This document shows, one piece after another, positions 5,113 to 64,000 of a DNA stretch of 64,000 bases. The translations under genes were made by a program, and so were the position numbers. Where the stretch lies: IMG/VR virus record IMGVR_UViG_3300032053_000007, one strand, 5' to 3'. The DNA comes from a virus (Duplodnaviria; Heunggongvirae; Uroviricota; Caudoviricetes). Every line of letters begins with the position of its first letter. Position 1 is the first letter of the stretch. The notes beneath the pieces are model-generated. The model was not told the DNA's origin. It searched no databases and saw only the letters and a program-made list of their open reading frames with translations.

Positions 5113-5133
5113 CTGGCATCATAACCTTTAAAT

Positions 5134-5166
5134 TGAGCATGGTTATTCTAGCGTAAGGTTTATAAG
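5134..5166 (+). promoter_or_regulatory. GAGCATGG-box/TATA promoter cassette
   Basis: tGAGCATGGttaTTCT..TTTATAAG; offset 24. Confidence 0.65.
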
Positions 5167-5204
5167 GGACGGAGAGATTATAGTAGTTGGAGTATTGATG
5201 TATA

Positions 5205-9596: not shown

Positions 9597-10266
9597 TGAA
9601 GAGAAAAGAAAAGAAATAAGACACCCAAGTTTTGGTGTAATAAATATCTCTAGGGGCGTTTGCTCAGAGAAAATGAATTTGTTTGGAAGCAGTATCCAGC
9701 AGAGAACATTCATCAGAGTAGATATTAGCAAAGCTATTCTTATGAGGGACCTTTACAAAGATTGGATTATGTCGGACCACGGCGTACCGATAGTATCCGT
9801 TTATCTTTCGCCGTCACAGTTTGCAGATGCTATAACATCTTTGAATCAGGGTGAAGGAACCCCATGCACAATACGTTACATGGATGGACATGAAGTAAAA
9901 GAGGCACAATTTGAAAGTAAACGTGTGCAGTTCGATACCGAATTCGAAGATAAGATGAAGGAAGTCGCATCGACTACTAACCAATTTTACACCAAGATTG
10001 CTGGGATACTAGCGAAGCCGAGCATAGGAAAACATGATAGGGAAGAAATTCAAAAGCAACTCGACCAGTTAAAGATGCAGATAGAAAATAATGTTCCTTT
10101 TATAAAAAGACAATTCTCAGAACAGATGGATGAAACTGTAGTCGAAGCAAAGAATGAAGTTACCGCATTCATAGAAGACAAAATAAAGAAGTTGGGCTTA
10201 GAGGGATACAAAAAGGAACTACAGAAATCTTTAGAATTCAAGGAAGAAAAGAAGGAAGAACCATGA
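9589..10266 (+). CDS. hypothetical protein
   Basis: track ORF 225 aa; helical K/E-rich C-terminal half. Confidence 0.6.
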   Translation: MPDEEKRKEIRHPSFGVINISRGVCSEKMNLFGSSIQQRTFIRVDISKAILMRDLYKDWIMSDHGVPIVSVYLSPSQFADAITSLNQGEGTPCTIRYMDGHEVKEAQFESKRVQFDTEFEDKMKEVASTTNQFYTKIAGILAKPSIGKHDREEIQKQLDQLKMQIENNVPFIKRQFSEQMDETVVEAKNEVTAFIEDKIKKLGLEGYKKELQKSLEFKEEKKEEP

Positions 10267-14411: not shown

Positions 14412-14449
14412 CCGTAAAGTTTATATACTTCTTTTAATACAGTATCTCT

Positions 14450-14735
14450 TAGACACGGGTAATTGTTCACAACTTACATAGATGGACATGCCCCATGTTA
14501 GGACCTTTCGGGTACACGATTGGCGACAACATGATTGGTCGGACAACGAACAAGACCTATAGGAGTTGGGTGAACCCGCCAGCAATGCATTGGGGGTGGC
14601 GAAACCCTGACAAAACCGTGTCATGACCGAAGACCCACGGTGGGAGCGAAACGTACACTATGATATACGGATTGGCAGAACGGCTCGCCGTGATAGCTAT
14701 GGGGTCGGGTGTACTTTACCCGTCCCCACATTCTA
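14450..14735 (+). ncRNA. candidate structured ncRNA, class unknown
   Basis: own TATA (14420-14427); GC-richer than flanks; no + ORF; ends pair (acgggtaa 14455 / ttacccgt 14718); internal hairpins and GATTGG..ACAAC repeats. Confidence 0.45.
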
Positions 14736-14785
14736 TTTCCATAACCTTTAAATACCCGTTTTTCTTCTCATTCTAATGGATAGCA

Positions 14786-20564: not shown

Positions 20565-20978
20565 GCATATACCAACTTTCTCTGGGATAGTCCCCTACCC
20601 CTAGCTCCCCTAGACGTTCAAAACTCCCTGAAAAAAAGACGTTTTCAGTTATTTTCTTTTCTCGAATCCTTAGTAAATCTAAATCGAAATGCTCAGGAAA
20701 TAGGAAATAAAAATAATACCAAAATAACAATCATAACAGAAATCACAAAGTTCGCCGACCAAAATCAAATTTTCGCCTGCGCGCCGCCTATGTGTGGGTA
20801 TGTGGTTTCAAAAAGTGTGACCGATGGTTTTTTCCTAAAGGTTTTTCTGCGTTACCCTTTTCCGTGTTTCCGTCTGGGTCACTTTCGAGGTTACGGTTAG
20901 TGTAACTTTCTGTGTCATTGAAAGTTCAACTCTTCCTTATATAATACGAGTTGCACCATATAAACCTTTCGGTAGTTA

Positions 20979-20994
20979 TTAATCAACTGATTAA
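20979..20994. promoter_or_regulatory. TTAATCA-NN-TGATTAA palindrome
   Basis: ttaatcaactgattaa. Confidence 0.55.
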
Positions 20995-21042
20995 AAGTTT
21001 GGGGCATGGAGCCGAGGGGGTGGAAAAAAGCCATCTGACCCC

Positions 21043-21174
21043 CGAACTGAATCGAACTCGGCAATACGAGCAAATTTCGGGGCGATTTGGCTCCCGCCCT
21101 TTCCCACCGAGAAAATTTCCCATAGGGTGAGTTTCGAACTGAGTCGAATTTCCGAAAACGAGCAAATTTCGAGG
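21043..21174 (+). repeat. two 40-nt imperfect direct repeats (period 92)
   Basis: cgaactgaRtcgaa..acgagcaaatttcgRgg at 21043-21082 and 21135-21174. Confidence 0.6.
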
Positions 21175-21311
21175 CAGATAATTTTTACAGGTCTCGCAAA
21201 TGACCATCACTTTTTTGCTGGTTGGGGATGTTTGTATGGAGAGAATGGCTTTCGAAATTTTTCGAAGTGCCAAAAAAGCTCCCAACCCTGCTGGTCATGG
21301 AAACCGAATGT

Positions 21312-21327
21312 TTAATCAACTGATTAA
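21312..21327. promoter_or_regulatory. TTAATCA-NN-TGATTAA palindrome
   Basis: ttaatcaactgattaa. Confidence 0.55.
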
Positions 21328-21392
21328 AATAGTTCCTTTTATGACCTTCGGCATGGAGAAGTCCATGCAAACCAGCGATACTCATAGGGTTT

Positions 21393-21425
21393 TGAGCATG
21401 GGAGTTCTTACTAAACCTTTATATA
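21393..21425 (+). promoter_or_regulatory. GAGCATGG-box/TATA promoter cassette
   Basis: tGAGCATGGgagTTCT..TTTATATA; offset 24. Confidence 0.65.
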
Positions 21426-21459
21426 GGGGAAAGCTATATCTCTAGGTAGTGACCGATTA

Positions 21460-27896: not shown

Positions 27897-28841
27897 ATGA
27901 GCGAAGAACAAAGTAAAAAAGAACTAGAGGAAAGAGCTAAATCTGTAATGGAGAGAATGGAAGAGATAATCGCTAAGGCTCAGAATGATGGAACGCTAGA
28001 GAGTTTTAACAAACCAATTCAACTTACTAAAGACTTTCTGACCACTAGACCGAACGATGCAAAGATAAAGACACAAATAGCATTATTCAAAAGCAGAACC
28101 TTCCTAGACAATTTCTTCTTAGACAAAGACGATAAACCTATGGGGGGCATTCCGAAAGTTGCACAGATAGGTGTGGTCGGAAACCCAGATGTCGGCAAGT
28201 CTTTAATCGCTCAGGAAGTTGCGCTCAGATTAGCTAGTGACGGAAACAAAGTTATTTTCACAACTAGCGAAGATATTTTCCAAGCTGACAACGACAGATT
28301 TGATTTGCAGAGTCGAATGAAACAGATGGCAACTTTTCTGGGACTGAGTTGGGAAAACATAAAGCAGAATCTTTTTGTGCTGGACGTTATTGCACACGGC
28401 GAACTTAGAGAATGGAATACACTTGTTTCAACTTATCGCGTACTCGTAGAACAGGAAAAGGCTGAGTTTCTAATTGTCGATTCGTTAACTCTCCTAGATG
28501 ATTATCGTGCTGGACTGAAATTCCACTTAGGCGAATTTGTCCGCTATAATCAGAAGAAAGGCGTGACAGGAATCTTTATCTCACAGAAAGCAAATGAGGA
28601 ATCAGTTGACCAACACGGACTTGCAGGGGGCATTGCATTAAGCCATTTGCTAGACGTGGAGTTTGAAATCAACTTTAAGAAACTCTCAAGTTGGGACGCT
28701 CAAATGAAAATCGACACCGAAGCAAAACAAGGCGAACTTCTACACTTCATACGGGTTCTCAAGTGTCGGCTAGGCAAGGCTGATATGCGATACCACAAAC
28801 TCCAAATAAGTAAAGATGGGATACTTCAATTAATCAAGTGA
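27897..28841 (+). CDS. KaiC/RadA-like RecA-superfamily ATPase
   Basis: Walker A GNPDVGKS, Walker B FLIVDSLT. Confidence 0.7.
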   Translation: MSEEQSKKELEERAKSVMERMEEIIAKAQNDGTLESFNKPIQLTKDFLTTRPNDAKIKTQIALFKSRTFLDNFFLDKDDKPMGGIPKVAQIGVVGNPDVGKSLIAQEVALRLASDGNKVIFTTSEDIFQADNDRFDLQSRMKQMATFLGLSWENIKQNLFVLDVIAHGELREWNTLVSTYRVLVEQEKAEFLIVDSLTLLDDYRAGLKFHLGEFVRYNQKKGVTGIFISQKANEESVDQHGLAGGIALSHLLDVEFEINFKKLSSWDAQMKIDTEAKQGELLHFIRVLKCRLGKADMRYHKLQISKDGILQLIK

Positions 28842-28846
28842 TTAAT

Positions 28847-28963
28847 ATGTTGACCGAACTTCAATTCTACGGCTTGATGGCTCTCTACTTTCTCGGTGTG
28901 GTTATATTCGCTCACTTGAAGTATGAGAAGCACAAACCCCCAGAACCGTTCAAACGTGATTGA
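28847..28963 (+). CDS. small TM protein (38 aa)
   Basis: hydrophobic core; TGA opens cassette 28961. Confidence 0.45.
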   Translation: MLTELQFYGLMALYFLGVVIFAHLKYEKHKPPEPFKRD

Positions 28964-31215: not shown

Positions 31216-31485
31216 GTGAGTGAAAAAGTAAAACAATATCTGCAATGTGGATGCAAAACAAAATTTATTCTTCTTGCTAGAGAGGAACACGAGAAACTTC
31301 ACAGAGATGCGTTTATACATTCTCTTGCACTATATAATGGTGCGATTGTTCACAACAACGTGGCACTACTTCATAGCGGAGAATCTTATTATCCTTCTAT
31401 TTCACTTAATTTAGGGGTTCGCCGTTTAGCTTGGCAAAGACGAGTTGAAATCTGGAACGAACCCGAACGTGTTCAATTTACTTGA
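31216..31485 (+). CDS. VxFT-tail protein
   Basis: GTG start; ends ERVQFT; TGA opens cassette 31483. Confidence 0.55.
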   Translation: MSEKVKQYLQCGCKTKFILLAREEHEKLHRDAFIHSLALYNGAIVHNNVALLHSGESYYPSISLNLGVRRLAWQRRVEIWNEPERVQFT

Positions 31486-31515
31486 ACATGGACTTTCTTA
31501 GCGAAGGTTTATAAG
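31483..31515 (+). promoter_or_regulatory. GAGCATGG-box/TATA promoter cassette
   Basis: tGAACATGGactTTCT..TTTATAAG; offset 24. Confidence 0.6.
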
Positions 31516-31553
31516 TGACGCTGATAACTTACTTTCAGTAAGGTCGAGAATAA

Positions 31554-32450
31554 ATGAGAAATATACTAAAGAATAAAAACGGCGAATGGAGCATTATTCG
31601 AATTGCTATTGTTGTCATCATTTCCGCATTTCTAGTGTTGACAGGCGTTCTAGGAATCAGGACTGTTCCAAGCGGTTACATAGGCGTTTCTACTCAATTC
31701 GGGCAAATTACAGGCACAACGGGTGAAGGCATTCATTGGGTCAACATTTGGTTTGGACAAGACATAGTGAACATTGACTTGCAGATTCATAAAGCAGAAC
31801 TAGCAAACATGTCTTGTGGAACTAACGACATGCAAGAAGTCACAACCACAGTTGCAATAAACTATCGAATTGAGTCTGGATTTGCAGAGGATATTTACAG
31901 AACACTCCGCACAGATTGGGAATCACGGGTTATAATCAACAACATGCAAGAAAGTCTAAAAGGTTCAATCTCTACTTTCAAAGCAGAAGAACTTCTCCAA
32001 AAACGAGATGCAGTAAAAGTTCTCTTTTTAGACACACTTCGCTCACGAATAAAGGATTATCACATAACAGTCGTTGACGTTCAGCTAGAGAACTTCGCAT
32101 TCTCAACAAAGTTCAACGAAGCCATTGAGAACAAAGTAACAGCCGAACAGCAAGCAATCACAGAAAAGAACAACTTAGAAATAGTTCGCTATCAACAGGA
32201 ACAGGAAATTCTCAAGCAACAAGCACAAGCAAACATGACAAGAATTGAAGCAGACGCATACGCATACGCAACTTTGGCAAAAGCCAATGCAGACGCGGAA
32301 GCATTGCAATTAATCGCACAGAAACTAAATGTTAGCCCAGAATATCTTCAATATCTCTATCTGCAACAATGGGACGGCAAACTGCCGACCTATTACGGAA
32401 GCGGTATAATTCCGTTCTTCCAACTGCCAACCAATTCGACAACTCCATAA
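31554..32450 (+). CDS. SPFH/band-7 (prohibitin-like) membrane protein
   Basis: N-terminal TM, RTVPSGYIGVSTQFGQ SPFH core, A/Q/E-rich coiled C-terminus. Confidence 0.75.
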   Translation: MRNILKNKNGEWSIIRIAIVVIISAFLVLTGVLGIRTVPSGYIGVSTQFGQITGTTGEGIHWVNIWFGQDIVNIDLQIHKAELANMSCGTNDMQEVTTTVAINYRIESGFAEDIYRTLRTDWESRVIINNMQESLKGSISTFKAEELLQKRDAVKVLFLDTLRSRIKDYHITVVDVQLENFAFSTKFNEAIENKVTAEQQAITEKNNLEIVRYQQEQEILKQQAQANMTRIEADAYAYATLAKANADAEALQLIAQKLNVSPEYLQYLYLQQWDGKLPTYYGSGIIPFFQLPTNSTTP

Positions 32451-32451
32451 A

Positions 32452-32470
32452 ATCTTCCTTTCTTTTTTTG
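32452..32470 (+). terminator. oligo-T terminator
   Basis: cttcctttctttttttg directly after stop. Confidence 0.5.
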
Positions 32471-32537: not shown

Positions 32538-33218
32538 ATGAAAAAAAGAAATTTGATAATAATCGCGCTTTTGATTGCGTTAGTGATACCAATAGTGATA
32601 GTTCCAGCATTTGCTTCTGACGACAATGATAAGCCAAATTGCAATGACGGTGACGATGGCAACTCTTGTAACAACAAGACCAAAATAATCTACGTGGACA
32701 GAATTGTTTACGTCAACCAAACGGTTGAAGTTCCTGTTTACGTGGACAGAATAGTGTACGTTGACAGAGTTGTTGAGAAAATCGTTTACAAAGACAGAAT
32801 AGTGGAAAAGACTGTTTACATTGACAGAATAGTTGAAAAGATTGTCTATGTTGACAAAGTTGTTGAAACAGTCGTTTACGTTGAAGTGCCAATAGAGGTC
32901 ATCAAAGAAGTCATTAAGGAAGTGCCTGTCGAAGTCATCAAGGAAGTCGAAATAATCAAATACTGCAACAACACGGTCTATATCGAAGTGCCAAAAGAAG
33001 TCATCAAGTACATCGAGAAAGTCCTTTACGTGAACAGAGTTGTTTACGTTGACAAGCCATTCTACGTCTATATCACCGACAACAAGAAAGACTGTAACCC
33101 ATGTTGGCTCTTGATAATCATACTGACTTTCATACTAGGACTGATAATTGGGGCATTGCTCAACAATCGAAAGTGTGTTTGCGTCAAAGAAACCAAAAAC
33201 AAAAATACCAAACAATAG
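32538..33218 (+). CDS. secreted/anchored repeat protein (x-V-Y-x-D-R-I-V-E-K decapeptide repeats)
   Basis: N-terminal signal/TM, Cys/Asp/Asn-rich stretch, about 10 repeats, then (E)VIKEV repeats, C-terminal TM. Confidence 0.65.
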   Translation: MKKRNLIIIALLIALVIPIVIVPAFASDDNDKPNCNDGDDGNSCNNKTKIIYVDRIVYVNQTVEVPVYVDRIVYVDRVVEKIVYKDRIVEKTVYIDRIVEKIVYVDKVVETVVYVEVPIEVIKEVIKEVPVEVIKEVEIIKYCNNTVYIEVPKEVIKYIEKVLYVNRVVYVDKPFYVYITDNKKDCNPCWLLIIILTFILGLIIGALLNNRKCVCVKETKNKNTKQ

Positions 33219-34174: not shown

Positions 34175-34183
34175 GTGAATGGA

Positions 34184-35041
34184 ATGACCGAAACAGAAAA
34201 TAAAATCGCGGTTGAAATATCTGAACCCGATAAGGTTCAAGAAATGAGCGATGCAATACTTGAAATGATAGTGAAGAACCTAGTCGATAACGGAAGATTG
34301 CTTGTTATTGGGCTAGGGGGAACGGGCAAGACAAACGCCGTGAAGCACATAGTAAGATACATTCGAAACTCACAAAGATATAAAGAGGGAAAAATAGTAA
34401 TTCGAATAGGCGATAGTGCTAATACATGGAAACTCACATTTGATGAAATACCCTACGTTGACATAACAAAGAAACCGAGCATTCCAGAGGACGAGAAAAC
34501 AGTTTTGCTTGATTTGGGATTCTTATCAACTGCAAAAAATGTTAGCCTAGTCGAAAACTTAGTCGGACAAGACTATTACATTCAGAGAGAATCAATGAAC
34601 AAGAACAACGGGACGGCAGAAATCCAGAGAATCTACGTTCTGGAAGAGATTCAGAACTTGTTTGGTTCTTACAAGAAATCTGACTTCTGGTTGAAGATTT
34701 GGAGCGAATCAAGAAATTATAGTCAATTCTTCATAGGAATAGGTCAACGTCTGAGTGACATTTCTACTCAGATAGTTGAGCGCACAAAATATCTACTGAT
34801 AGGTTCTCTCGCTGGCGATAACGACATCTCGAAATTGAAAAGGGCATTTGGTTCAGAGAAGGGACAGAGAATAGCAAATGTAGTTATGAGTTTGCGAAAA
34901 GGCGAATTTCTCTGGGTTGACAGAGAGGGCGAAAACTCTATGAAAATTTCGTTTCCAAAGTTCGAACAGAACGGTAAACCTTATGAATTTAACGACAAAA
35001 CCATTAACACAAGGATTCATGCCGAGAGAGTTTTCCTATGA
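34184..35041 (+). CDS. P-loop NTPase (FtsK/HerA/A32-type candidate)
   Basis: Walker A GLGGTGKT, Walker B-like RIYVLEE; ATG 34184 after SD AGGTGA (track used GTG 34175). Confidence 0.6.
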   Translation: MTETENKIAVEISEPDKVQEMSDAILEMIVKNLVDNGRLLVIGLGGTGKTNAVKHIVRYIRNSQRYKEGKIVIRIGDSANTWKLTFDEIPYVDITKKPSIPEDEKTVLLDLGFLSTAKNVSLVENLVGQDYYIQRESMNKNNGTAEIQRIYVLEEIQNLFGSYKKSDFWLKIWSESRNYSQFFIGIGQRLSDISTQIVERTKYLLIGSLAGDNDISKLKRAFGSEKGQRIANVVMSLRKGEFLWVDREGENSMKISFPKFEQNGKPYEFNDKTINTRIHAERVFL

Positions 35042-41487: not shown

Positions 41488-41624
41488 CAGAAGAGAAAAT
41501 GATAGAATGTTTTAGATGTGGAAAACTTTGGTTCTGCAAACCCTTCGCTGGAAGTCGTGCACTTTTTTGTCCCGAATGTCTAAAACTATTGTATAAACAA
41601 AAAGAGAAAGTTCGGTTCGATTAG
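41484..41624 (+). CDS. zinc-ribbon VxFD-tail mini-protein (46 aa)
   Basis: CFRCGKLWFC..CPEC; ends EKVRFD; stop TAG, last gene of array. Confidence 0.55.
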   Translation: MTEEKMIECFRCGKLWFCKPFAGSRALFCPECLKLLYKQKEKVRFD

Positions 41625-41729
41625 TCCCCTACCCCTAGCTACATTTGACAGGTAAATAGACTAGGGAAAAAGACGTTCTGGATGCTAGGGCGAAGCCAAT
41701 GGGAACTGAAGCCTGAAGTCGGTGCTTTT

Positions 41730-41745
41730 TTAATCAGTTGATTAA
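41730..41745. promoter_or_regulatory. TTAATCA-NN-TGATTAA palindrome
   Basis: ttaatcagttgattaa. Confidence 0.55.
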
Positions 41746-41899
41746 AAGTCTGGGGAATACGTTGGGGGCTGGCAGAGGGCTTCACCATAAACCGAAATCT
41801 AATTGGGAAGAAAAAACGCCTATGTGCGTTATGTGACACTCAGGATTCTACTAAAAATTTAATTTTCGAGGGGACGGAAAGTTACACCGAAAGTGTGAC

Positions 41900-42031
41900 C
41901 TAGCCTTCGTCCTCTAGTGCTTCCTCAAGTTCTGACGGGTCGGGACAACCAACGGGTCGCCTGAAAGTTTTAACTACTTTTGCAAGAACAATTAAACCTA
42001 TTATGAAACCCAGAGTATCAAACGGAAACAT
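41900..42031 (-). CDS. small membrane protein (43 aa)
   Basis: MFPFDTLGFIIGLIVLAKVV..; ATG about 12 nt after TSS predicted from minus-strand cassette 42067-42099. Confidence 0.4.
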   Translation of the reverse strand: MFPFDTLGFIIGLIVLAKVVKTFRRPVGCPDPSELEEALEDEG

Positions 42032-42066
42032 ATTTGTGCCTCTTTGTGAATACTACAACACGGTAG

Positions 42067-42099
42067 CTTATAAATCTTTCCCTAAAAACGCCATGCTCA
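42067..42099 (-). promoter_or_regulatory. GAGCATGG-box/TATA promoter cassette (minus strand)
   Basis: reverse complement reads tGAGCATGGcgtTTTT..TTTATAAG; offset 24. Confidence 0.55.
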
Positions 42100-42164
42100 A
42101 TTTCCAGCACAGCTTTCACAATGGTCGCTTTTGCCAAACGGGACGCGGTGCGAGGCGCATTTAA

Positions 42165-42180
42165 TTAATCAGGTGATTAA
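42165..42180. promoter_or_regulatory. TTAATCA-NN-TGATTAA palindrome
   Basis: ttaatcaggtgattaa. Confidence 0.55.
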
Positions 42181-42230
42181 CTGCTTCACGCCCCTTCACG
42201 CCGAGGCACGATGCGAACTGTTGAGCTTAT

Positions 42231-42246
42231 TTAATCAAATGATTAA
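42231..42246. promoter_or_regulatory. TTAATCA-NN-TGATTAA palindrome
   Basis: ttaatcaaatgattaa. Confidence 0.5.
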
Positions 42247-42340
42247 TTTCAAAACTCGAAGCCTTTACATTCGAAGTCTGCGCGTTGCCGTTTTCCAAGA
42301 CTGATTTTCCAAAACGAACCCGAACGAAACCCAGATTCCA

Positions 42341-42520
42341 TAGGACTGATGGTCTTTTTAACATCGTTTCCATTGGTCGAAAAGCATTATTTGAGCCTCT
42401 TCGAACAAAAGAAGGACACTCGTTCAATATCGTTTATATATGTTCGAAATTATTGAACGATTTGCCCCGAAGAGAACGCTCAGGGGATGAAATTGAGAGT
42501 CGGGCATTATCCACAGTCCT
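42341..42520 (+). repeat. conserved 180-nt noncoding element, copy 1 (candidate structured RNA)
   Basis: collinear with 56347-56526: taggactgatg .. hairpin cgttcaat/attgaacg .. cgggcattatccacagtcct. Confidence 0.5.
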
Positions 42521-42629
42521 TTGGGGGACACTACTTCGGGGCACAGTTAAACTCTAGGTGTAATAAAAGTTTCGACCATGCCTTTGACCATCAACATTTA
42601 AGTCACTCAGAGTGCAACCTTTCACTTTT

Positions 42630-42645
42630 TTAAACAGTTGATTAA
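42630..42645. promoter_or_regulatory. palindrome (one mismatch)
   Basis: ttaaacagttgattaa, 7 nt upstream of box. Confidence 0.5.
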
Positions 42646-42651
42646 CTAAAA

Positions 42652-42684
42652 CGAGCATGGTCGTTCTGGGGAAACCTTTATAAG
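42652..42684 (+). promoter_or_regulatory. GAGCATGG-box/TATA promoter cassette
   Basis: cGAGCATGGtcgTTCT..TTTATAAG; offset 24; leader cgctggcatctata shared with 44919 cassette. Confidence 0.65.
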
Positions 42685-42714
42685 CTACGCTGGCATCTAT
42701 AAAGGTGTGGAAAA

Positions 42715-44442
42715 ATGACAAAGCAGAAACAAGCAAAGACGAACAACTTCTCTAAGATACTTGACGAGATGAGGAATCTTGCCATAGCAATTACGAAGGA
42801 CAAACGGATTCGTATCAAGTATATTCCAGAACAACCAACTTCTGCTTTCAATATGGAAAACTTTGAGATTTCTTTGAGTTTACAGAGTTATCCCGATTTC
42901 GTGAAAACATCGCCCCGTCTATTCCGAAAAATCCTAGACGGTGACATGGTTCACGAGTGCGGTCATCTGATTCTAACAAAACCGAATTGGGAATTTTTCA
43001 ACAATTGGACAACAAAAATCAAACGACAGAGAGGATTTTACAAGCTGGCTCACGAAGTTTGCAACATAGTTGAAGATAAGCGCGTGAATCATTTCATAAT
43101 TCTCAGATACAGGTTTGATGTCGGCAAGAGGCTACTTTTGGCGAATTTGATACTAAAAGACATGATAGACAACACAATTGAAAAGCCACAAATAGCCATG
43201 TCAACCATCTTACCGAAGGGCGAAAACTTAGGCGAAAACGAAATTCCAAACATGACAATTCAAGCTGGACAACAAGACGGGGTTTACATGGTTGCAATTT
43301 TGTGCAATGAAGGTCTATATGAGGCTAAATGCACAGAGTTATGGAACAAACTAAGCCCAGATGCTAGAAAGGACTGTGAAACAGCCCTTAAAGTGCTAGA
43401 GGGGACGAAATATCAACGTGTCAAACTCGACATAATAAGGTCTTGCCAAACGATTTATGAATTGGTAGCTAAACACTTGAACGCTGACTATACGACAAAG
43501 GAATATGTCGTTTCTAGAAGAGGGGGCAACGTAAAGGGCAAAATATCGGACAGACTTAGGCAATTACTAGAAAAAGAGGAAGAGCAAGAAAAGGCAGAAG
43601 AGGACAAGAAGAAACACCTAGAAGATTTGCAGAAAGGTTCGGGTGCTGGCGAAGGCACAGGCGAAGAGATTCCAGCCCCAGACCCAGATTTTGAGGCGTA
43701 TTCGAAACTTCTGGACGAATGCAAGCCTGAAATTTCCGAGCTATTGAATCAACTAAAGAAGAAAATGAAACCGAGAGTTCAACGGGACATTTTCCAGAAA
43801 CGCGGAAAAATGATGAGTCCAATTGTTCCACGCATCTACACAAACAGCTTTAGGGGAACCGTTCGCAATGTGTATCTGCGTACAACAACAAAATTTGAGA
43901 AGGAACAAGTCGCAATTCAATTTTGGTTCGATTTCTCAGGGTCAGTTAGTCGAATAGAGGCTGAAAAGATAACCACTATACTGAATGAGGTCTTTGGACA
44001 TTACGTTGACGATTACGGGTTCAGTATTGGGTGCTTTGGGGCAGATACCCAGAAAGTAAAGACTTTCTTTGAAACCTTCGAAAACACACGGGCAAGAATT
44101 GGAGCTATTTCGGTGAATGCTGGCGGTACTGAGGTTTCCGTTGGATTAGAGGCAAGCCTGAGAATGTTCAATACGATTAAAGGCGAACGCCGAAAGATTC
44201 TGGTCATTGCGTCCGATTTCTGCTTCTGTGGTGATGAAGAAACGAAAGCAGAGGAATTAATCGACCAATATGCGAAAGCTGGAATTGAATGTATCTTCAT
44301 AGGTTTCTGTGACTGTGAGAATGTAGAAACCTTCGCAAGCAAAGTGAAAAACTTGAAGTGCTCACGAACACGGATAAACCAAATATCCGAATTACCTCAG
44401 AGATTCCTAAACGTGTATCTAAACGTAGAAACCCAGAAGTGA
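42715..44442 (+). CDS. vWA-domain protein with N-terminal HExxH putative metallopeptidase domain
   Basis: MVHECGHLI; MIDAS-like FDFSGSVS; E/K-rich linker; architecture as in metallopeptidase-plus-VWA proteins partnered with MoxR ATPases. Confidence 0.65.
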   Translation: MTKQKQAKTNNFSKILDEMRNLAIAITKDKRIRIKYIPEQPTSAFNMENFEISLSLQSYPDFVKTSPRLFRKILDGDMVHECGHLILTKPNWEFFNNWTTKIKRQRGFYKLAHEVCNIVEDKRVNHFIILRYRFDVGKRLLLANLILKDMIDNTIEKPQIAMSTILPKGENLGENEIPNMTIQAGQQDGVYMVAILCNEGLYEAKCTELWNKLSPDARKDCETALKVLEGTKYQRVKLDIIRSCQTIYELVAKHLNADYTTKEYVVSRRGGNVKGKISDRLRQLLEKEEEQEKAEEDKKKHLEDLQKGSGAGEGTGEEIPAPDPDFEAYSKLLDECKPEISELLNQLKKKMKPRVQRDIFQKRGKMMSPIVPRIYTNSFRGTVRNVYLRTTTKFEKEQVAIQFWFDFSGSVSRIEAEKITTILNEVFGHYVDDYGFSIGCFGADTQKVKTFFETFENTRARIGAISVNAGGTEVSVGLEASLRMFNTIKGERRKILVIASDFCFCGDEETKAEELIDQYAKAGIECIFIGFCDCENVETFASKVKNLKCSRTRINQISELPQRFLNVYLNVETQK

Positions 44443-44896: not shown

Positions 44897-44912
44897 TTAA
44901 TCAGTTGATTAA
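44897..44912. promoter_or_regulatory. TTAATCA-NN-TGATTAA palindrome
   Basis: ttaatcagttgattaa, 7 nt upstream of box. Confidence 0.55.
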
Positions 44913-44918
44913 CTAAAA

Positions 44919-44951
44919 TGAACATGGTCTTTCTAAGCAAACATTTAAATA
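44919..44951 (+). promoter_or_regulatory. GAGCATGG-box/TATA promoter cassette
   Basis: tGAACATGGtctTTCT..TTTAAATA; offset 24. Confidence 0.65.
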
Positions 44952-44985
44952 GGACGCTGGCATCTATACTCGTAAGGTAATAAAG

Positions 44986-46386: not shown

Positions 46387-46390
46387 AAAA

Positions 46391-54435: not shown

Positions 54436-54450
54436 CCTTCTCTTTTTTTG
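54436..54450 (+). terminator. oligo-T terminator
   Basis: ccttctctttttttg. Confidence 0.5.
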
Positions 54451-55335: not shown

Positions 55336-55351
55336 TTAATCAACTGATTAA
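55336..55351. promoter_or_regulatory. TTAATCA-NN-TGATTAA palindrome
   Basis: ttaatcaactgattaa. Confidence 0.55.
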
Positions 55352-55672
55352 CGAATCGTAGCTCGTAACGAGGCTGTGCACCCTTTACCCCGACCTCTAA
55401 CCATATAACACAAATTGTTAAGCAAATTCCCGAACCCCAGAGAACCCACGTCCGACCCCTAACCCAGACCCTCTAACGACCTCTAATCACTAACCCCCCC
55501 AAGAGAGCCATATACCCCCAAAAGTGGAGTCCATGCTTAAAAGAAATGCTCGATAAAAGATACTGATGACCTTTACATACGTAAAGGAAAGGGTTGTCAT
55601 ACGTAAAGGGTCTATGGAGTGGAATGTTGGCATACGACAACGGCGTGATTGACATAGTGCTGTAGCTCTATT

Positions 55673-55688
55673 TTAAACAGGTGATTAA
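55673..55688. promoter_or_regulatory. palindrome (one mismatch)
   Basis: ttaaacaggtgattaa. Confidence 0.5.
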
Positions 55689-55813
55689 CGACCCCATTAT
55701 AAAGAAGTCCCCCCCCTCTAGCTCCCCTGAATGCCAAAACAAGCCTAGAAAAAAGACGTTTTGGCAAACGGTGACTTTATTATCCGAAAGGCTCGCGGAA
55801 CTGTGGAGAATTT

Positions 55814-55829
55814 TTAATCAGGTGATTAA
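55814..55829. promoter_or_regulatory. TTAATCA-NN-TGATTAA palindrome
   Basis: ttaatcaggtgattaa. Confidence 0.55.
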
Positions 55830-56192
55830 GCAGGGCGAACCGACAGGTAGAAGGGACGGCGTGAACTCTCTGACCAGAAAATAATTGGAACCAAAAAAAC
55901 GCCTATGTGCGCTTATGTGATATTCTCAGTTGCATTCTATGGACAATTTCCTGTTAACCGAGGCGTTACCCCAAAAGTTGCACTTTTTGTTACACTAGAA
56001 GTTGTGCTAGACCAAAACGTTTATATACCCCCTATTTAAGCGTATCGCCGATAGCCTTATATAGTAGCTATTTAAACCTATCGGTTGCTTATATATGTGC
56101 AAACTTAGCAAAATTCGAACCATAAAGTACAACTCTCTATTATCACGTCCTTCGAACCATATACCGCAACTCTTATATAGATGCCATACTTA

Positions 56193-56225
56193 CTTATAAA
56201 CGTTTGCCCAGAACGACCATGCTCG
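56193..56225 (-). promoter_or_regulatory. GAGCATGG-box/TATA promoter cassette (minus strand)
   Basis: reverse complement reads cGAGCATGGtcgTTCT..TTTATAAG; offset 24; no convincing CDS downstream. Confidence 0.5.
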
Positions 56226-56346
56226 ATTTAGAGGCTGATTCAGGGCGGAAACAACTAACGGAGCACACTTACAGATTCGAACTCGCGCCGATGACTAGCT
56301 CTGAGACTGATTAACTAAAACGAACGTCATCGAACGGTGAATTCAT

Positions 56347-56526
56347 TAGGACTGATGACAATTTTGACGTTCTAACATTACCCCGAACTCCACGATTTAG
56401 CCTTATTCGACTAAACGGGGCGTACTCGCTCAATATCGTTGAGCAAATATAAAGGGAATTGAGCGTATTGCTCCGAACGACCCGCTCACAGGTTGATTTT
56501 AGAAAACGGGCATTATCCACAGTCCT
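56347..56526 (+). repeat. conserved 180-nt noncoding element, copy 2
   Basis: same landmarks and spacing as 42341-42520; hairpin cgctcaat/attgagcg shows a compensatory T-A to C-G change. Confidence 0.5.
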
Positions 56527-56792
56527 ACCCGCCATTGCTGGCGCGAACGGGCTTCGAACTTGGTTGTACTTTGAGTTACATTGAATATACATCATGCGTT
56601 ACTATGTAATATACGCTTAACGCGAACAACTCCAACTCTCTCAAACATACGTTCTCAGCGCACTATATATACGTTTGCTTTTTCCTGTACGACACATCTA
56701 CAAGTCAATGGTCGAACTGTTGGTTTAAGCTACACTTTAATGGAAACGTTTATAAGAGAGGGTGCGAACGTTATTCTAAGGACGTGAAACAC

Positions 56793-58909: not shown

Positions 58910-59170
58910 ATGGCAAGAATCTTTAAAGTGAATGAAACCACAGAAATACTCTGTGAATTTGTGAGCACAAGAAGCGGTTTTAGACATGATGCAAGGCTGT
59001 TCAAAAATGGCAATGAATACGAAAAGGCTAAAGTATGCTACGTAAACAGAACATGGGAGAAATTTGACTTCGAAACCGTCATACATAAACTGCTAGAAAA
59101 GACGGACGCTTTGACCGAAACAGAAAAAGAGCAATTCAGAACCGAATTAAACAACAAATACGGCTATTAA
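58910..59170 (+). CDS. hypothetical protein
   Basis: TATA 58867, AAGGACGTG SD. Confidence 0.6.
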   Translation: MARIFKVNETTEILCEFVSTRSGFRHDARLFKNGNEYEKAKVCYVNRTWEKFDFETVIHKLLEKTDALTETEKEQFRTELNNKYGY

Positions 59171-59206
59171 CCCCCCTACCCCCTTTTTGTTTTTTTGGTG
59201 ATAATC

Positions 59207-59308
59207 ATGGAACAAAAAAGACGAATTCGGACACAACCGAAATTAAAAGGAAATCTCGGCAAACTGTTTAATAAGCGATTTTTTGAACTGCTCGAACAGA
59301 ACCGATAA
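59207..59308 (+). CDS. basic mini-protein (33 aa)
   Basis: SD TGGTGATAATC-ATG; flanked by T-run terminators. Confidence 0.4.
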   Translation: MEQKRRIRTQPKLKGNLGKLFNKRFFELLEQNR

Positions 59309-59445
59309 AACTCCCTCTTTTTTTGACTTGCAAACTTAGCGGAAAAACAAATTTTAACTTAATATATACCTATGTGCGTTACACCCCAGACAGTTACCCC
59401 CAGAAGTTCAACTTTCGGTTGACCACAACCTTTATATAGGTCGCC

Positions 59446-59497
59446 ATACCGAAACGTTTATATACTACCCTATACCGAAACCCTTATATACTACCTA
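59446..59497 (+). repeat. two 26-bp tandem repeats each carrying a TATA box
   Basis: ataccgaaacSYttatatactaccYt x2. Confidence 0.55.
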
Positions 59498-59591
59498 TTT
59501 GACTTCATAGTTCCTGTTCTAACCATACAACACCGTCACTTATAAACCTTCCTATTTAACTGTTCAACAATAATACAGTTAGTACATTGTG

Positions 59592-59780
59592 TTCGATTCA
59601 TCACAACGATGAGAGCGAAAATTTCGTTCGAGAAAATATACATGAAAACACCATAGTACGAGTAACCACTTCGAAAACACACATATGGGGCAATAAAAAG
59701 ACCATTGTGGTGAATCGTAGCCAATTTCGAAGCATGGGAAAAGCATGGTAAATTCTCGAATCGTGACTTCGATTCACCAC
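59592..59780. repeat. TTCGATTCAYCAC iteron-like repeats (second set)
   Basis: 59592 (+), 59707 (inverted), 59768 (+); central ttcgaagcatgggaaaagcatgg resembles reverse complement of 58716-58752. Confidence 0.5.
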
Positions 59781-60024
59781 GCATAGGAACAAAAGTTCAC
59801 CGTGAGTTCAACTGTGGGTGACATTCAATTCAAGTGATGCGTGTCCATGTAATATACGCTTAACGCGAGGCTCTGGTTATGAACGTGGGCACGGGACTAT
59901 TTAAACGTTTGCTTTTAACTGTTTAACGTGACTACACATGACCATATAAACTGTATATTTGACCTACACTTTAAAGCCAACCTTTAAATACTACGTTCGA
60001 CACGTTACCTAATGGTGAACAAGG

Positions 60025-63412: not shown

Positions 63413-63573
63413 TTCCTAGTGATTAGCCTCTAGGTAGAATATAGCTAACTGATGAACCTTATAGGCTATGGTTTATAGGGTCAAGGTTGTTGCACTACAC
63501 TTGCAAGCTAGAGGCTATCACACAATAATACTTTTAGTACAACTAATTAGTTACACTTTTAGTTATACCAAAT

Positions 63574-63751
63574 CCTTATATACTAGCCTGTTTCACTTGT
63601 GCACAACACTACTATATAAACCTTTCACAACCCTTATATACTAGAGCCTCACTCACGAGCACAGCACTACTATATAAGGCTTACGCAACCCTTATATACT
63701 ACACCCTACCCCCTACCCCTATTTAAACTTATCGCAACGCTTATATACTAG
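63574..63751. repeat. 58-bp tandem repeats carrying inverted pairs of TATA boxes
   Basis: ccttatatactag at 63574, 63632, 63690 (and 63739); ctactatataa at 63610, 63668. Confidence 0.6.
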
Positions 63752-64000
63752 ACCCGCCCCTCTACCCCCTTATAAAGCTATCGGACAATTCTCAGTTGCA
63801 CTTTCGGTTGCACCCACAAGAGCACTAACAATTATCACAAAAAGTACAACTTTCAGTTACATCAACAAGTCCCCCGCCAGTTCCACCCACAGGCGAATCA
63901 GAGGTAATATAGTCCCCCCCTAAACACAGGAATTCGATTTTGGTGGATGGGACTAAGCTGGGTAAATTGCCCTATGTTTCAACTGGGTCATGATGTTTCA

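What the first reader, a model, noticed from the sequence alone, without database searches (positions are those of the whole stretch)
20565..21392. Paralogous noncoding hubs punctuate the genome, and an exact 18-mer closes two arrays 21 kb apart
Hubs at 20565-21392, 41625-42651 and 55330-56780 share an ordered set of motifs:
- (a)gtcccctacccctagct or ctctagctcccct;
- (g)aaaaagacgtt(t/c)t;
- the palindrome;
- taattgg..aaaaacgcctatgtgcg(c)ttatgtga;
- a GT(T/A)NCAC-TTTC-NGTNNCAC dyad or direct repeat, such as gttacaccgaaagtgtgac or gttgcactttcggttgcac;
- TATA-like arrays and a minus-strand cassette.

Partial versions of this set occur at 59309-60000 and 63415-64000.

The 18-mer agtcccctacccctagct is identical at 20589-20606 and 41623-41640. 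In hub B it begins inside the stop codon of the last array gene.

Candidate roles are replication origins or iterons, module-boundary recombination sites (att-like), or packaging signals.
Basis: seen in the sequence. Interest (0 to 1): 0.66.

Follow-up and report, generated by a model that had tools for sequence, protein, structure and literature searches.

The report
Conserved noncoding boundary modules, archaeal-type virus
The repeated noncoding "hubs" are real and conserved in related uncultivated viruses, and they look like control regions between blocks of genes (stop signals, regulator binding sites, backward-pointing promoters and small structured elements) rather than demonstrable replication origins.

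Summary
The window is part of a contig of at least 151 kb from an uncultivated virus-like element with archaeal-type promoters. It has four full hubs, not three.

Each hub starts with a ~330-bp "left module" (LM), at 20567, 41603, 55697 and 59161. A rearranged fifth copy lies near 63.7 kb.

The LM is an ordered set of boxes that begins at or just after a gene's stop codon:
- a C-rich box;
- a GACGTTYT box;
- a T-run plus the palindrome TTAATCANNTGATTAA;
- an A-run plus a CTATGTG repeat;
- GTTNCAC repeats.

Across relatives, spacer sequences are randomised but spacer lengths stay fixed (32-35, 41-45 and 62-65 nt). No RNA fold or reading frame is conserved, so the LM most likely acts as DNA-level binding sites.

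Most boxes match the element's own transcription signals. The palindrome occurs 24 times, mostly at promoters outside the hubs.

To the right of the LM lie reverse-strand promoters, a conserved 43-aa membrane-protein gene (hub B), TATA arrays and a structured ~190-nt cassette (hubs B and C).

Best reading, confidence about 0.45: boundary and control modules between transcription units. I found no support for origins (no ORB motifs, no origin-type skew switch) or for a host att site. Contig breaks cluster at hubs, so a role as recombination junctions stays open.

The parts
20567..20903 (+). Hub A left module (LM). C-box 20589-20606, G-box 20633-20645, A-run/T-box 20764-20804. No palindrome between the G-box and T-box; an AT-rich stretch at 20647-20750 takes its place.
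   Evidence: nhmmer profile E 2e-38. Motif positions. G-box to T-box spacing is 153 nt despite unrelated spacer sequence.
20877..20966 (.). Hub A GT(T/G)NAC-TTTC repeats (20877-20931) and a pair of TATA-like boxes (20935-20966).
   Evidence: Read in the sequence. One-mismatch copy of CCTTATATACTA at 20935.
20979..21327 (.). Hub A right part. Palindromes at 20979-20994 and 21312-21327 flank a noncoding stretch that carries a ~40-nt direct repeat (about 21046 and 21136).
   Evidence: No ORF here has a match in any related locus.
21393..21427 (+). Promoter cassette of the next gene array (first gene starts at 21460).
   Evidence: nhmmer promoter profile E 1e-4. TATA to start codon distance is 42 nt.
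41603..41933 (+). Hub B left module. C-box 41623-41640 (starts inside the TAG stop), G-box 41667-41679, T-run plus palindrome 41726-41745, A-run/T-box 41811-41838, dyad GTTACACCGAAAGTGTGAC 41881-41899.
   Evidence: nhmmer E 9e-63..
41900..42031 (-). Small membrane-protein gene (43 aa, MFPFDTLGFIIGLIVLAKVVKTFRRP...). It converges on the LM.
   Evidence: tblastn finds it at the same place in L023, L003, L006, L011, L022, L010 and L020, at 46-88% identity. An analogous small gene is present in L016.
42059..42103 (-). Canonical promoter cassette in reverse orientation. It would drive the small gene.
   Evidence: nhmmer promoter profile, minus strand, E 3e-5. The same arrangement can be read in L003, L006 and L016.
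42165..42246 (.). Two palindromes (42165-42180 and 42231-42246).
42330..42527 (.). Structured noncoding cassette, copy 1 (AGGACTG...CAGTCCT closing stem). It lies within the 42270-42530 paralogue.
   Evidence: About 60% identical to 56276-56536 with no indel and no period-3 pattern. In the shared fold, 90.5% of cells are paired, against 27-46% when partners are slid; 9 pairs show compensatory changes. Folding z-score -3.0. No Rfam match.
42626..42701 (+). T-run plus palindrome (42626-42645) and the promoter cassette (42646-42701) of the VWA gene, which starts at 42715.
55336..55688 (.). Hub C left part. Palindromes at 55336-55351 and 55673-55688 flank a C-rich noncoding stretch.
   Evidence: GC skew -0.27.
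55697..56008 (+). Hub C left module. Degenerate C-box 55706-55723, G-box 55750-55762, T-run plus palindrome 55811-55829, A-run/T-box 55894-55920, GTTGCACTTTTTGTTACAC 55977-55995.
   Evidence: nhmmer E 4e-49..
56010..56175 (.). Array of BRE/TATA-like boxes.
   Evidence: Read in the sequence. One-mismatch copy of CCTTATATACTA at 56055.
56174..56231 (-). Canonical promoter cassette in reverse orientation. It points through the TATA array toward the LM.
   Evidence: nhmmer E 4e-10. 86% identical to 42646-42701 in reverse complement.
56336..56533 (.). Structured noncoding cassette, copy 2.
   Evidence: Folding z-score -3.4. No Rfam match.
56656..56759 (.). Divergent promoter pair: a minus-strand BRE/TATA (56656-56679) and the plus-strand promoter (56742-56759) of the gene that starts at 56784.
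59161..59432 (+). Hub D left module. The TAA stop is followed directly by C-box 59171-59183 and T5GT7. G-box variant 59214-59226, T-box 59369-59378, GTTCAACTTTCGGTTGAC near 59407.
   Evidence: nhmmer E 2e-8.. Spacings of 46 and 153 nt.
59433..59997 (.). Hub D right part:
- tandem BRE/TATA boxes (59446-59495, period 26);
- a cassette with CGATTCACCAC inverted repeats (59586-59790);
- a minus-strand TATA (59894-59914);
- the promoter of the gene at 60025 (59974-59997).
   Evidence: The inverted-repeat stem is shared with L006, with one compensatory change.
63415..64000 (.). Hub E, rearranged and cut by the window end. TATA-box tandem repeats 63574-63783, C-box-like CTACCCC repeats 63699-63719, dyad GTTGCACTTTCGGTTGCAC 63795-63813. 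The noncoding stretch runs on to about 64480 in the source contig.

Best explanation
The hubs are long intergenic control regions. They separate co-directional gene arrays (transcription units) of a large uncultivated virus-like element that uses archaeal-type BRE/TATA promoters.

Proposed mechanism, left to right through a hub:
1. Transcription of an upstream array ends in the left module (LM). The signals would be the pyrimidine-rich C-box placed at or just after the stop codon, and the T-run that abuts the palindrome.
2. The hub carries its own backward-pointing transcription unit, driven by a canonical promoter cassette in reverse orientation. In hub B and its orthologues this unit encodes a 43-aa membrane protein. 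In hub C it is noncoding.
3. These minus-strand transcripts run back toward the LM. They would stop at its A-run/T-box and G-box, which read as GGCG-T6 and ACGTC-T5 on the minus strand.
4. The LM is therefore a convergent stop-and-insulate zone.
5. The LM boxes are kept at fixed distances while the spacers drift. This points to a stereospecific protein-DNA complex. Likely members are the dimeric regulator that recognises TTAATCANNTGATTAA at about two dozen promoters, and the factor that recognises GACGTTCT upstream of ordinary promoters.
6. The right end of each hub holds the promoter of the next array.

Shown by the data: the anatomy, its conservation, the fixed spacing, the lack of coding or a conserved RNA fold in the LM, and the promoter-like nature of the motifs.

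Inferred only: termination at the named boxes, protein binding, and transcription of the structured cassettes.
For: The hub boxes are made of the element's own transcription signals:
- About 30 copies of one stereotyped promoter cassette lie in front of genes. TATA to start codon distances cluster at 30-47 nt.
- The palindrome sits about 38 nt upstream of the TATA box or about 20-30 nt downstream of it, at many promoters outside hubs.
- The G-box core GACGTTYT occurs 10 times on the plus strand against 1 on the minus strand (1.5 expected). Four of these are in promoter cassettes and three in LMs.
- Outside hubs, the usual element after a stop codon is a pyrimidine-rich run plus T6-7 (32450, 54435, 57634, 58535, 60884, 62538). 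The hub D C-box carries exactly such a T-run, and several relatives also have a T-run just after the C-box.

Reverse-oriented promoter cassettes lie in hubs B and C. The hub B cassette precedes a small gene that is conserved at the same place in at least eight related contigs.

The LM is conserved:
- It occurs in relatives whose neighbouring VWA protein is 50-90% identical to the window's.
- L004 and L006 each have two copies.
- Every copy has the orientation of the genes.
- Boxes are 70-100% identical while spacers are 40-60% identical. Spacer lengths stay at 32-35, 41-45 and 62-65 nt.
- No conserved RNA structure (consensus -0.44 kcal/mol).
- No frame stays open across copies.

Promoter-bearing intergenic repeats that keep their positions across a virus genus are documented experimentally for halovirus HF2 (PMC8707807).
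Against: - No transcript data were available, so no 3' end or start site is demonstrated.
- T5+ runs are not depleted inside coding regions (87 in coding sequence; 64 expected for the whole window). A T-run alone therefore cannot be the terminator.
- Hubs A, B and C lack a T-run directly after the C-box.
- Terminators and promoters do not in themselves require spacing fixed to within 2 bp.
- The T-box (CTATGTG repeat with period 10) and the GTTNCAC repeats (period 12) have no counterpart in ordinary promoters. They look like iterons.
- Hub A has no canonical reverse-strand promoter cassette.
- Every gene array in the data lies on the plus strand. The constant orientation of the LM is therefore not an independent test.
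Confidence: 0.45

Rival explanations
1. The left modules are replication origins, several per genome. In this reading the TATGTG and GTTNCAC direct repeats act as iterons for an element-encoded initiator. The A-tracts and TATA arrays would serve as the region that unwinds. Hub promoters might supply primer transcripts, as at the phage T4 origins oriF and oriG (from my own knowledge, not checked here).
For: - The box architecture is rigid, with helical-period direct repeats (CTATGTGCGC/TTATGTG period 10; GTTGCAC-TTTCG-GTTGCAC period 12). These repeats occur only in hubs.
- A-tracts lie upstream of the T-box, and AT-rich TATA arrays lie next to the LM in hubs A, C and D and in L004.
- Hub A has an AT-rich stretch of about 100 bp inside the LM.
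- The LM is neither coding nor a conserved RNA fold.
Against: - Canonical archaeal ORB/mini-ORB cores (TTCC...GGAA; defined in PMC1904270) are not enriched: 30 matches against 20 expected, none in an LM.
- The AT-rich stretch of hub A is not conserved in hubs B or C or in relatives.
- Third-codon GC skew falls from left to right across hubs A and B (0.27 to 0.10; 0.13 to 0.00) and is flat at C and D. Bidirectional origins predict a rise.
- No Orc1/Cdc6, MCM or primase domain was found among 125 window ORFs. The only helicase-like gene (27897-28841) is not next to a hub.
- Four origins within 40 kb would be unusual.
Confidence: 0.2
2. The hubs serve mainly as recombination junctions between exchangeable gene modules. 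Exchange could be site-specific at the C-box (att-like). Alternatively, the conserved hub sequence could simply offer homology for exchange of the variable flanking arrays between co-infecting relatives.
For: Contig ends from independent assemblies fall at or next to hubs:
- k141_72449 ends at window position 56406;
- k141_1354018 ends at 55115;
- Ga0494785_000026 ends in the equivalent of the left part of hub C;
- Ga0373629_0012077 ends at 63718;
- the L014 contig starts 8 nt before a C-box, and the L020 contig ends 69 nt from one.

The small-gene arrays upstream of hubs are mosaic between relatives. The hub, the VWA gene and the MoxR gene stay together. The C-box is the best conserved stretch between hubs A and B, with 19 nt identical.
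Against: - The 19-mer has no counterpart in archaeal genomes. It gave one chance-level hit, in a Bdellovibrionales MAG.
- No integrase or recombinase domain was detected in the window.
- Module insertions and deletions also occur away from hubs. The 26.9-33.5 kb segment is missing in L023, and an insertion sits inside the gene upstream of hub D in L058 and L059.
- Hub positions are stable landmarks: upstream of VWA in more than eight relatives, and before the homologues of 56784-58302 in L006.
- LM paralogues are saturated in divergence, so there is no sign of recent exchange or gene conversion beyond the C-box.
- Contig breaks can equally reflect strain heterogeneity at any boundary between conserved and variable sequence.
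Confidence: 0.12
3. One or more hubs, hub C above all, mark physical genome ends or packaging signals (pac or cos-like). The other copies would be related recognition sites.
For: Three independent contigs end within about 1.3 kb of each other at hub C. Hub C has an extra C-rich left part that the other hubs lack. A relative was deposited as a viral population (vOTU) in a peat virome and metagenome study (PMC8626947).
Against: The 151-kb contig reads straight through hub C. No terminal repeat could be examined. Packaging sites are usually single, whereas the LM occurs at least four times in 64 kb. No terminase was identified next to a hub. The only terminase-like hit is a weak PHROG match for the gene at 34175-35041.
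Confidence: 0.07

Closest known systems
Promoter-bearing intergenic repeats of halovirus HF2 and other Haloferacalesvirus members (Russ, Pfeiffer and Dyall-Smith 2021, PMC8707807)
   Same: - Stereotyped intergenic repeats found only between genes.
- They contain BRE/TATA and initiator regions plus extra conserved blocks of unknown role.
- Sequence and genomic position are conserved across related viruses.
- That paper also describes a complex bidirectional promoter region and long counter-transcripts.
   Different: - HF2 repeats are 29-58 bp single promoters.
- Here the ordinary promoter cassette is the counterpart of those repeats.
- The ~330-bp left module, with five or six boxes at fixed spacing and no canonical TATA, has no described HF2 equivalent.
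- There is no sequence similarity: no BLAST match to 50,697 phage and archaeal-virus records.
Archaeal chromosomal replication origins with ORB/mini-ORB repeats bound by Orc1/Cdc6
   Same: Clusters of short repeats next to AT-rich DNA. Several origins per replicon are normal in some archaea (that last point is from my own knowledge).
   Different: The conserved ORB core (TTCC...GGAA) is absent from the hubs. No orc1/cdc6 gene lies nearby. There is no origin-type skew switch.
Operator sites of archaeal and viral transcription regulators placed upstream of or over the BRE/TATA-initiator region
   Same: A 16-bp perfect palindrome lies at two preferred positions relative to the TATA box: about -38, and overlapping the expected start site. 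Such positions are typical of activation and of repression by occlusion (established knowledge of archaeal promoters, not tested here). The half-sites are kept across a clade, and another clade (L043) uses a different palindrome.
   Different: The binding protein is unknown. The palindrome is also built into the LM at a fixed distance from boxes that are not promoters.
Multi-site recombination or architectural loci such as phage lambda attP (core plus arm sites at fixed spacing)
   Same: A region of about 250-330 bp in which several short recognition boxes keep their order and distance while the spacer sequence is free. This is a resemblance from my own knowledge only.
   Different: There are several copies per genome. 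No recombinase gene was seen. No matching host site was found.

Membership tests
Archaeal BRE/TATA promoter (ordinary promoter cassettes and reverse cassettes in hubs) | An A-rich BRE followed by a TTTATATA-like box about 25 nt upstream of the transcription start, hence a few tens of nt upstream of the start codon | tested here: met
   About 30 cassette copies carry AAAC-N-TTTATA. TATA to start codon distances cluster at 30-47 nt. Actual transcription starts were not measured.
Archaeal BRE/TATA promoter (left module itself) | A canonical BRE/TATA box inside the LM | tested here: not met
   The promoter profile gives no hit inside any LM. Only a weak A-rich AAATCTAATT-type stretch lies upstream of the T-box.
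Archaeal intrinsic terminator (oligo-T tract) | A run of at least 5 T on the transcribed strand just downstream of the last gene | tested here: inconclusive
   A T5-6 run abuts the palindrome 100-110 nt after the stop codon in hub B and at the matching position in hub C. T5GT7 follows the C-box in hub D. A-runs give T-runs on the minus strand. But T5+ runs are also common inside genes, and no 3'-end data exist.
Orc1/Cdc6-dependent archaeal origin | Clustered ORB/mini-ORB repeats with the conserved TTCC...GGAA core | tested here: not met
   TTCCNNTGGAA with up to 1 mismatch gives 30 matches against 20.5 expected. None falls in an LM and there is no clustering. Definition taken from PMC1904270.
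Orc1/Cdc6-dependent archaeal origin | An initiator gene (orc1/cdc6) next to the origin | tested here: not met
   No such Pfam domain among 125 window ORFs, nor in the genes flanking hubs. The rest of the 151-kb contig was not examined.
Replication origin in general | Initiation of DNA synthesis at the site | not testable with these tools
   The only proxy was third-codon GC skew. It falls or stays flat across hubs, whereas bidirectional origins predict a rise.
Iteron-type origin or partition site | Several direct repeats of one 6-22 bp unit at helical spacing, confined to the locus | tested here: inconclusive
   CTATGTG occurs twice at period 10, and GTTNCAC two to five times at period about 12, only in hubs. 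Copy numbers are low and no binding protein is known.
Integrative-element att site | An identical core sequence in a host genome, typically in a tRNA gene, plus an integrase gene | tested here: not met
   The 19-mer gave one hit, in a Bdellovibrionales MAG, among 185,579 species genomes. No integrase domain. No tRNA in the window or in L057.
Known RNA families (Rfam 15) | A covariance-model match at or near the gathering score | tested here: not met
   No hit at gathering threshold in the window. Hub-only searches gave only chance-level hits with E above 0.3.
Structured noncoding RNA (hub B/C cassette) | A fold conserved through compensatory changes, and stability beyond shuffled controls | tested here: inconclusive
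   Three sequences only. 90.5% of cells are paired, against 27-46% when partners are slid. 9 pairs show compensatory changes, against 0-4. z-scores of -3.0 and -3.4. The structure was derived from these same sequences. The strand and any transcription are unknown.
HF2-type promoter-bearing intergenic repeats | A repeated intergenic block with promoter activity, conserved in sequence and position among related viruses | tested here: inconclusive
   Repetition, intergenic location and conservation are met. Promoter activity cannot be tested here.

The most novel reading that the evidence does not exclude
The left module is a previously undescribed multi-copy cis-acting DNA element of a lineage of large archaeal-type viruses. 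It would be a ~330-bp nucleoprotein platform with five or six boxes at fixed helical geometry. Its primary role would not be transcriptional. Candidate roles are several replication-initiation zones served by a non-Orc1 initiator, or sites that organise, segment or resolve the genome. The hub-encoded structured cassettes (~190 nt, hubs B and C) would be new noncoding RNAs acting with it.
Probability: 0.2. Interest if true: 0.75.

Novelty: new variant of a known kind. Interest (0 to 1): 0.48.

Why it matters
Very little is known about how large uncultivated archaeal-type viruses organise expression and replication of more than 150 kb of mostly unannotatable small genes.

This window gives a readable regulatory grammar:
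- one stereotyped promoter;
- one operator palindrome used about two dozen times;
- a terminator-like element after stop codons;
- a conserved, rigidly spaced boundary module that splits the genome into blocks.

That grammar makes gene-block boundaries predictable in related contigs. It offers concrete DNA probes for finding the regulators among the unannotated proteins. It also points to candidate noncoding RNAs.

If the modules turn out to be origins or recombination platforms, they would be the first such elements defined for this lineage.

Tried and rejected
- BLAST of 24.5 kb of DNA and of the VWA protein against 50,697 phage and archaeal-virus records found nothing.
- A scan of GTDB genomes with the VWA profile found no relative, so there is no host assignment.
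- IMG/VR holds only one contig of the palindrome-bearing clade. A strict LM pattern found nothing there.
- The LM as a structured RNA: rejected.
- The LM as a hidden small gene: rejected, because no frame stays open across copies.
- The hub B/C cassette as a gene: rejected. There is no period-3 conservation, and the long ORFs lie on different strands in the two copies.
- ORFs in hubs A and C: none has a match in any related locus.
- tRNA or tRNA-like genes in hubs and in the extension of hub E: none.
- The LM as a recently spreading mobile element: rejected. Paralogues are saturated in divergence (0.55-0.65 identity) while orthologues are 0.70-0.79 identical.
- The noncoding stretch after the helicase-like gene as an alternative origin: it holds a small ORF and an ordinary promoter.
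- The noncoding stretch at 14412-14785 as a structured RNA: z-score only -0.77.
- Pfam scans of the genes next to hubs gave no informative domain.
- Compositional skews of the hubs did not settle which strand is transcribed.
- I could not obtain the ends of the 151-kb, 140-kb or 112-kb contigs. Terminal repeats and the total number of hubs per genome remain unknown.
Full report
WHAT THE WINDOW IS

The window is about 37% G+C. Almost all ORFs are small, closely packed and on the plus strand. Exact protein look-ups place it inside ENA metagenome contigs of 86 kb and 151.8 kb.

Few proteins have recognisable domains:
- a VWA protein plus a MoxR-type AAA ATPase;
- a KaiC/gp4-like ATPase;
- an SPFH protein, an RNA ligase and glycosyltransferases;
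- DUF7417 and DUF7569;
- zinc ribbons, including a TFIIB-type one.

Just beyond the window lie genes for dCMP deaminase and ribonucleotide reductase. There is no match to 50,697 deposited phage and archaeal-virus genomes and none to GTDB genomes.

The 575-aa VWA protein has 77 homologues on contigs of up to about 150 kb. They come from peat and other environmental metagenomes (JGI, ENA and Logan). One relative is a viral population (vOTU) deposited by the Minnesota peat virome study (PMC8626947). Three relatives are in IMG/VR.

Genes are preceded by an A-rich BRE and a TTTATATA-type box 30-47 nt before the start codon. From this promoter type I infer a virus of an archaeon. No host was identified.

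CHECKING THE OBSERVATION

The 18-mer is exact at 20589 and 41623. A copy with 3 mismatches lies at 55706. None is expected by chance. In hub B it starts inside the TAG stop codon.

AAAAAGACGTTYT occurs three times, once in each of hubs A-C. The CGCCTATGTG...TATGTG box also occurs once per hub. Shared words are collinear between hubs.

I built a profile from hub copies in the window and in relatives. It scores four plus-strand sites in the window:
- 41603-41933 (E 9e-63);
- 55697-56008 (E 4e-49);
- 20567-20903 (E 2e-38);
- 59161-59432 (E 2e-8).

So the 'partial' copy at 59.3 kb is a fourth full hub that begins at a stop codon. The copy at 63.4-64.0 kb is rearranged and runs past the window end.

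The palindrome TTAATCANNTGATTAA is not specific to hubs. There are 24 copies against 0.08 expected, and 15 of them are outside hubs A-C.

THE GENOME'S GENERAL REGULATORY GRAMMAR

Self-comparison shows that the commonest repeat is a 40-75-nt promoter cassette. Its consensus is roughly (TTAATCANNTGATTAA)-CTAAAAYGAGCATGGWCGTTCTAGGCAAAC-N-TTTATATAG-GACGCTGGCATCTATA. About 30 copies lie in front of genes.

The stop codon of the preceding gene is often the TGA inside TGAGCATGG.

The palindrome lies either about 38 nt upstream of the TATA box or about 20-30 nt downstream of it, over the expected start site. That is the behaviour of an operator for a dimeric regulator.

The palindrome is kept in every relative down to 50% VWA identity (L003-L007, L010-L023, L032). 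More distant contigs lack it, and one of them (L043) has a different over-represented palindrome.

Where a gene is followed by a real gap, the usual element after the stop codon is a pyrimidine-rich run ending in T6-7. An example is CCCTC-TTTTTTT.

ANATOMY OF THE HUBS

Each hub begins with the left module (LM). Its order is:
1. stop codon;
2. C-box (CCCCTACCCCT);
3. G-box (AAAAAGACGTTYT);
4. T-run plus palindrome;
5. CCAAAATCWAATT plus an A-run;
6. T-box (CGCCTATGTGCGC-TTATGTG, a direct repeat of period 10);
7. GTTNCAC-TTTCG-GTTNCAC-type repeats.

To the right of the LM the hubs differ.

Hub B has a 43-aa membrane-protein gene on the minus strand (41900-42031). A canonical promoter cassette in reverse orientation (42059-42103) precedes it. 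This pair is present at the same place in at least eight related contigs.

Hub C has a reverse cassette (56174-56231) that points through an array of BRE/TATA boxes toward the LM. No ORF there has a match in any related locus.

Hubs B and C share a ~250-nt stretch at a constant offset of 14006 nt. It is about 60% identical, with no indel and no period-3 pattern. Its core of about 190 nt folds into a common structure closed by AGGACTG...CAGTCCT:
- 90.5% of cells are paired, against 27-46% when partners are slid;
- nine pairs show compensatory changes, against 0-4 in the controls;
- folding z-scores are -3.0 and -3.4.

There are only three sequences, and the structure was derived from them, so this is suggestive only.

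Hub D has three tandem BRE/TATA boxes. It also has a different cassette with CGATTCACCAC inverted repeats, which L006 carries as well.

No Rfam family matches any hub.

Each hub ends with the promoter of the next array.

CONSERVATION AND THE KEY PROPERTY OF THE LM

LMs occur in relatives at two stable positions:
- upstream of the VWA gene (L003, L004, L006, L010, L011, L020, L022, L023; displaced in L007);
- a second copy 7-12 kb downstream (L004, L006). In L006 it lies before homologues of window genes 56784-58302, which matches hub C.

Across copies the boxes are 70-100% identical. The spacers are 40-60% identical, which is about the level of unrelated sequence. Yet spacer lengths stay at 32-35, 41-45 and 62-65 nt. 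Hub A even replaces the palindrome-bearing spacer with AT-rich sequence and keeps the 153-nt distance.

There is no conserved RNA structure and no frame stays open across copies.

Paralogues are saturated in divergence, while orthologues among close relatives are 70-79% identical. The copies are therefore old and maintained, not recently transposed.

Fixed geometry, free spacers and no fold point to recognition as double-stranded DNA by a set of proteins.

WHAT THE BOXES RESEMBLE

- The G-box core GACGTTYT is strongly strand-biased: 10 on the plus strand against 1 on the minus strand, with 1.5 expected. It is the same element that lies about 15 nt upstream of the BRE in ordinary promoter cassettes.
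- The C-box resembles the usual pyrimidine-rich terminator-like element. A T-run follows it directly in hub D and follows it closely in several relatives.
- The palindrome is the general operator.
- On the minus strand, the A-run/T-box and the G-box read as GGCG-T6 and ACGTC-T5. These are plausible stops for the hub's own backward transcripts.

This leads to my preferred model. The hub is a boundary and control region. The LM is a zone where array transcription and hub counter-transcription both end, built as a fixed nucleoprotein platform.

The nearest documented precedent is halovirus HF2. Its intergenic repeats were shown to be promoters, carry extra conserved blocks, keep their positions across the genus, and coexist with long counter-transcripts (PMC8707807).

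Origins:
- The conserved ORB/mini-ORB core (PMC1904270) is not enriched and is absent from the LMs.
- No initiator gene was seen.
- No AT-rich element is conserved in the LM.
- Third-codon GC skew drops across hubs A and B and is flat at C and D. Bidirectional origins predict a rise.

These are weak tests. The hub-only helical-period repeats still look like iterons, so I keep this rival at 0.2.

att-like sites:
- The 19-mer has one chance-level hit among 185,579 species genomes.
- There is no integrase and no tRNA.

Module boundaries, which have circumstantial support:
- Five independent contig ends fall in or within about 60 nt of a hub.
- A sixth contig ends at the counterpart of the left part of hub C.
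- Upstream arrays are mosaic.
- However, insertions and deletions also occur away from hubs, and such contig breaks are expected at any junction between conserved and variable sequence.

Packaging: three contigs end near hub C, but the 151-kb contig reads straight through it.

LIMITS

- No transcript, replication or binding data exist for this element.
- All gene arrays are on one strand, so the orientation of the LM is not an independent test.
- T5 runs are common inside genes, so termination needs more than a T-run.
- Terminators and promoters alone do not explain the 2-bp precision of the spacing.
- I did not see the contig ends or whole genomes.

VERDICT

The finding is real and more extensive than reported. 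Most of its motifs belong to the element's transcription grammar. The rigidly spaced left module is a new, conserved cis-element whose exact role is open. I rate it a new variant of a known kind (virus intergenic control repeats), of moderate interest.

Noticed in passing
window, 24 sites, for example 5097, 25370/25421, 33389/33447, 44897, 47281/47353, 52306/52371, 58831: The palindrome TTAATCANNTGATTAA occurs 24 times against 0.08 expected. It lies almost always at gene boundaries, usually after a T-run. It sits either about 38 nt upstream of a TATA box or over the expected transcription start. It behaves like the operator of a genome-wide regulator. It is conserved in relatives down to 50% VWA identity. 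In L043 a different palindrome, TATTACGTAATA, is over-represented instead.
   Followed up: partly
window, about 30 sites, for example 956-997, 5129-5171, 31475-31525, 44907-44981, 54744-54803: One stereotyped promoter cassette (GAGCATGGWCGTTCT...AAAC-N-TTTATATAG...) precedes most gene groups. The TGA stop codon of the upstream gene is often the first three bases of TGAGCATGG. Stop and next promoter are therefore fused, with no terminator between them.
   Followed up: partly
window 42330-42527 and 56336-56533; L023 about 9645-9842: A paralogous noncoding cassette of about 190 nt has a 10-bp closing stem and internal hairpins supported by compensatory changes. Folding z-scores are about -3. It has no Rfam match. 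Its strand and expression are unknown.
   Followed up: partly
window 59586-59790; L006 9636-9785: A second type of hub cassette is built on CGATTCACCAC / GTGGTGAATCG inverted repeats. It is shared between hub D and the hub upstream of the VWA gene in L006.
   Followed up: partly
window 54516, 55115, 56406, 63718; ends of L003, L014 and L020: Ends of independently assembled contigs cluster at hubs, three of them around hub C. This could reflect strain heterogeneity at junctions between conserved and variable sequence, or physical DNA ends.
   Followed up: partly
window 55380-55510; L003 20130-20175: A C-rich, G-poor stretch lies left of the hub C module (…cccgaaccccagagaaccc…cccctaacccagaccctctaacg…). 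It is present in a related contig exactly at that contig's end. The other hubs have no counterpart.
   Followed up: no
homologues of window 42715-44442 (P0005, P0020, P0059): P0005, P0020 and P0059 (about 900 aa instead of about 575) carry intein and LAGLIDADG domains. P0011, P0018 and P0019 are equally long (about 920 aa), but no intein domain is on record for them. A LAGLIDADG-type ORF follows the VWA gene in L004.
   Followed up: no
L058 3781-6004 and L059, compared with window 58894-59058: Strain variants carry a 1.9-kb insertion: a 160-aa minus-strand gene plus a 94-aa gene. It is flanked by a 165-nt duplication inside the 86-aa gene just upstream of hub D.
   Followed up: partly
window about 26.9-33.5 kb, compared with L023 2076-2952: A segment of about 7 kb holds the KaiC/gp4-like ATPase and the SPFH gene. 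It is absent at the corresponding place in the close relative L023. Its borders in the window are intergenic regions that carry palindromes, not hubs.
   Followed up: no
window 32450-32470, 54435-54450, 57634-57655, 58560-58577, 60884-60902, 62538-62553: A recurrent element follows stop codons: a pyrimidine-rich run (CCCTC-like) followed by T6-7. It is probably the element's usual terminator. T5 runs alone are not avoided inside genes.
   Followed up: partly
window 14412-14785: A 374-nt noncoding stretch lies between two good BRE/TATA boxes, with 47% G+C against 37% overall. It is not significantly structured (z = -0.77) and has no Rfam match.
   Followed up: partly
window 32750-32884 and 46591-46672: There are in-frame tandem repeats inside genes: 30 nt x 4.5 copies in the 226-aa ORF at 32538-33218, and 36 nt x 2.3 copies across 46361-46890.
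   Followed up: no
window 28842-28962: A small unannotated ORF lies directly after the helicase-like gene. It would encode a hydrophobic protein of about 39 aa (MLTELQFYGLMALYFLGVVIFAHLKYEKHKPPEPFKRD). The stop codon of the helicase-like gene lies inside a palindrome copy.
   Followed up: no
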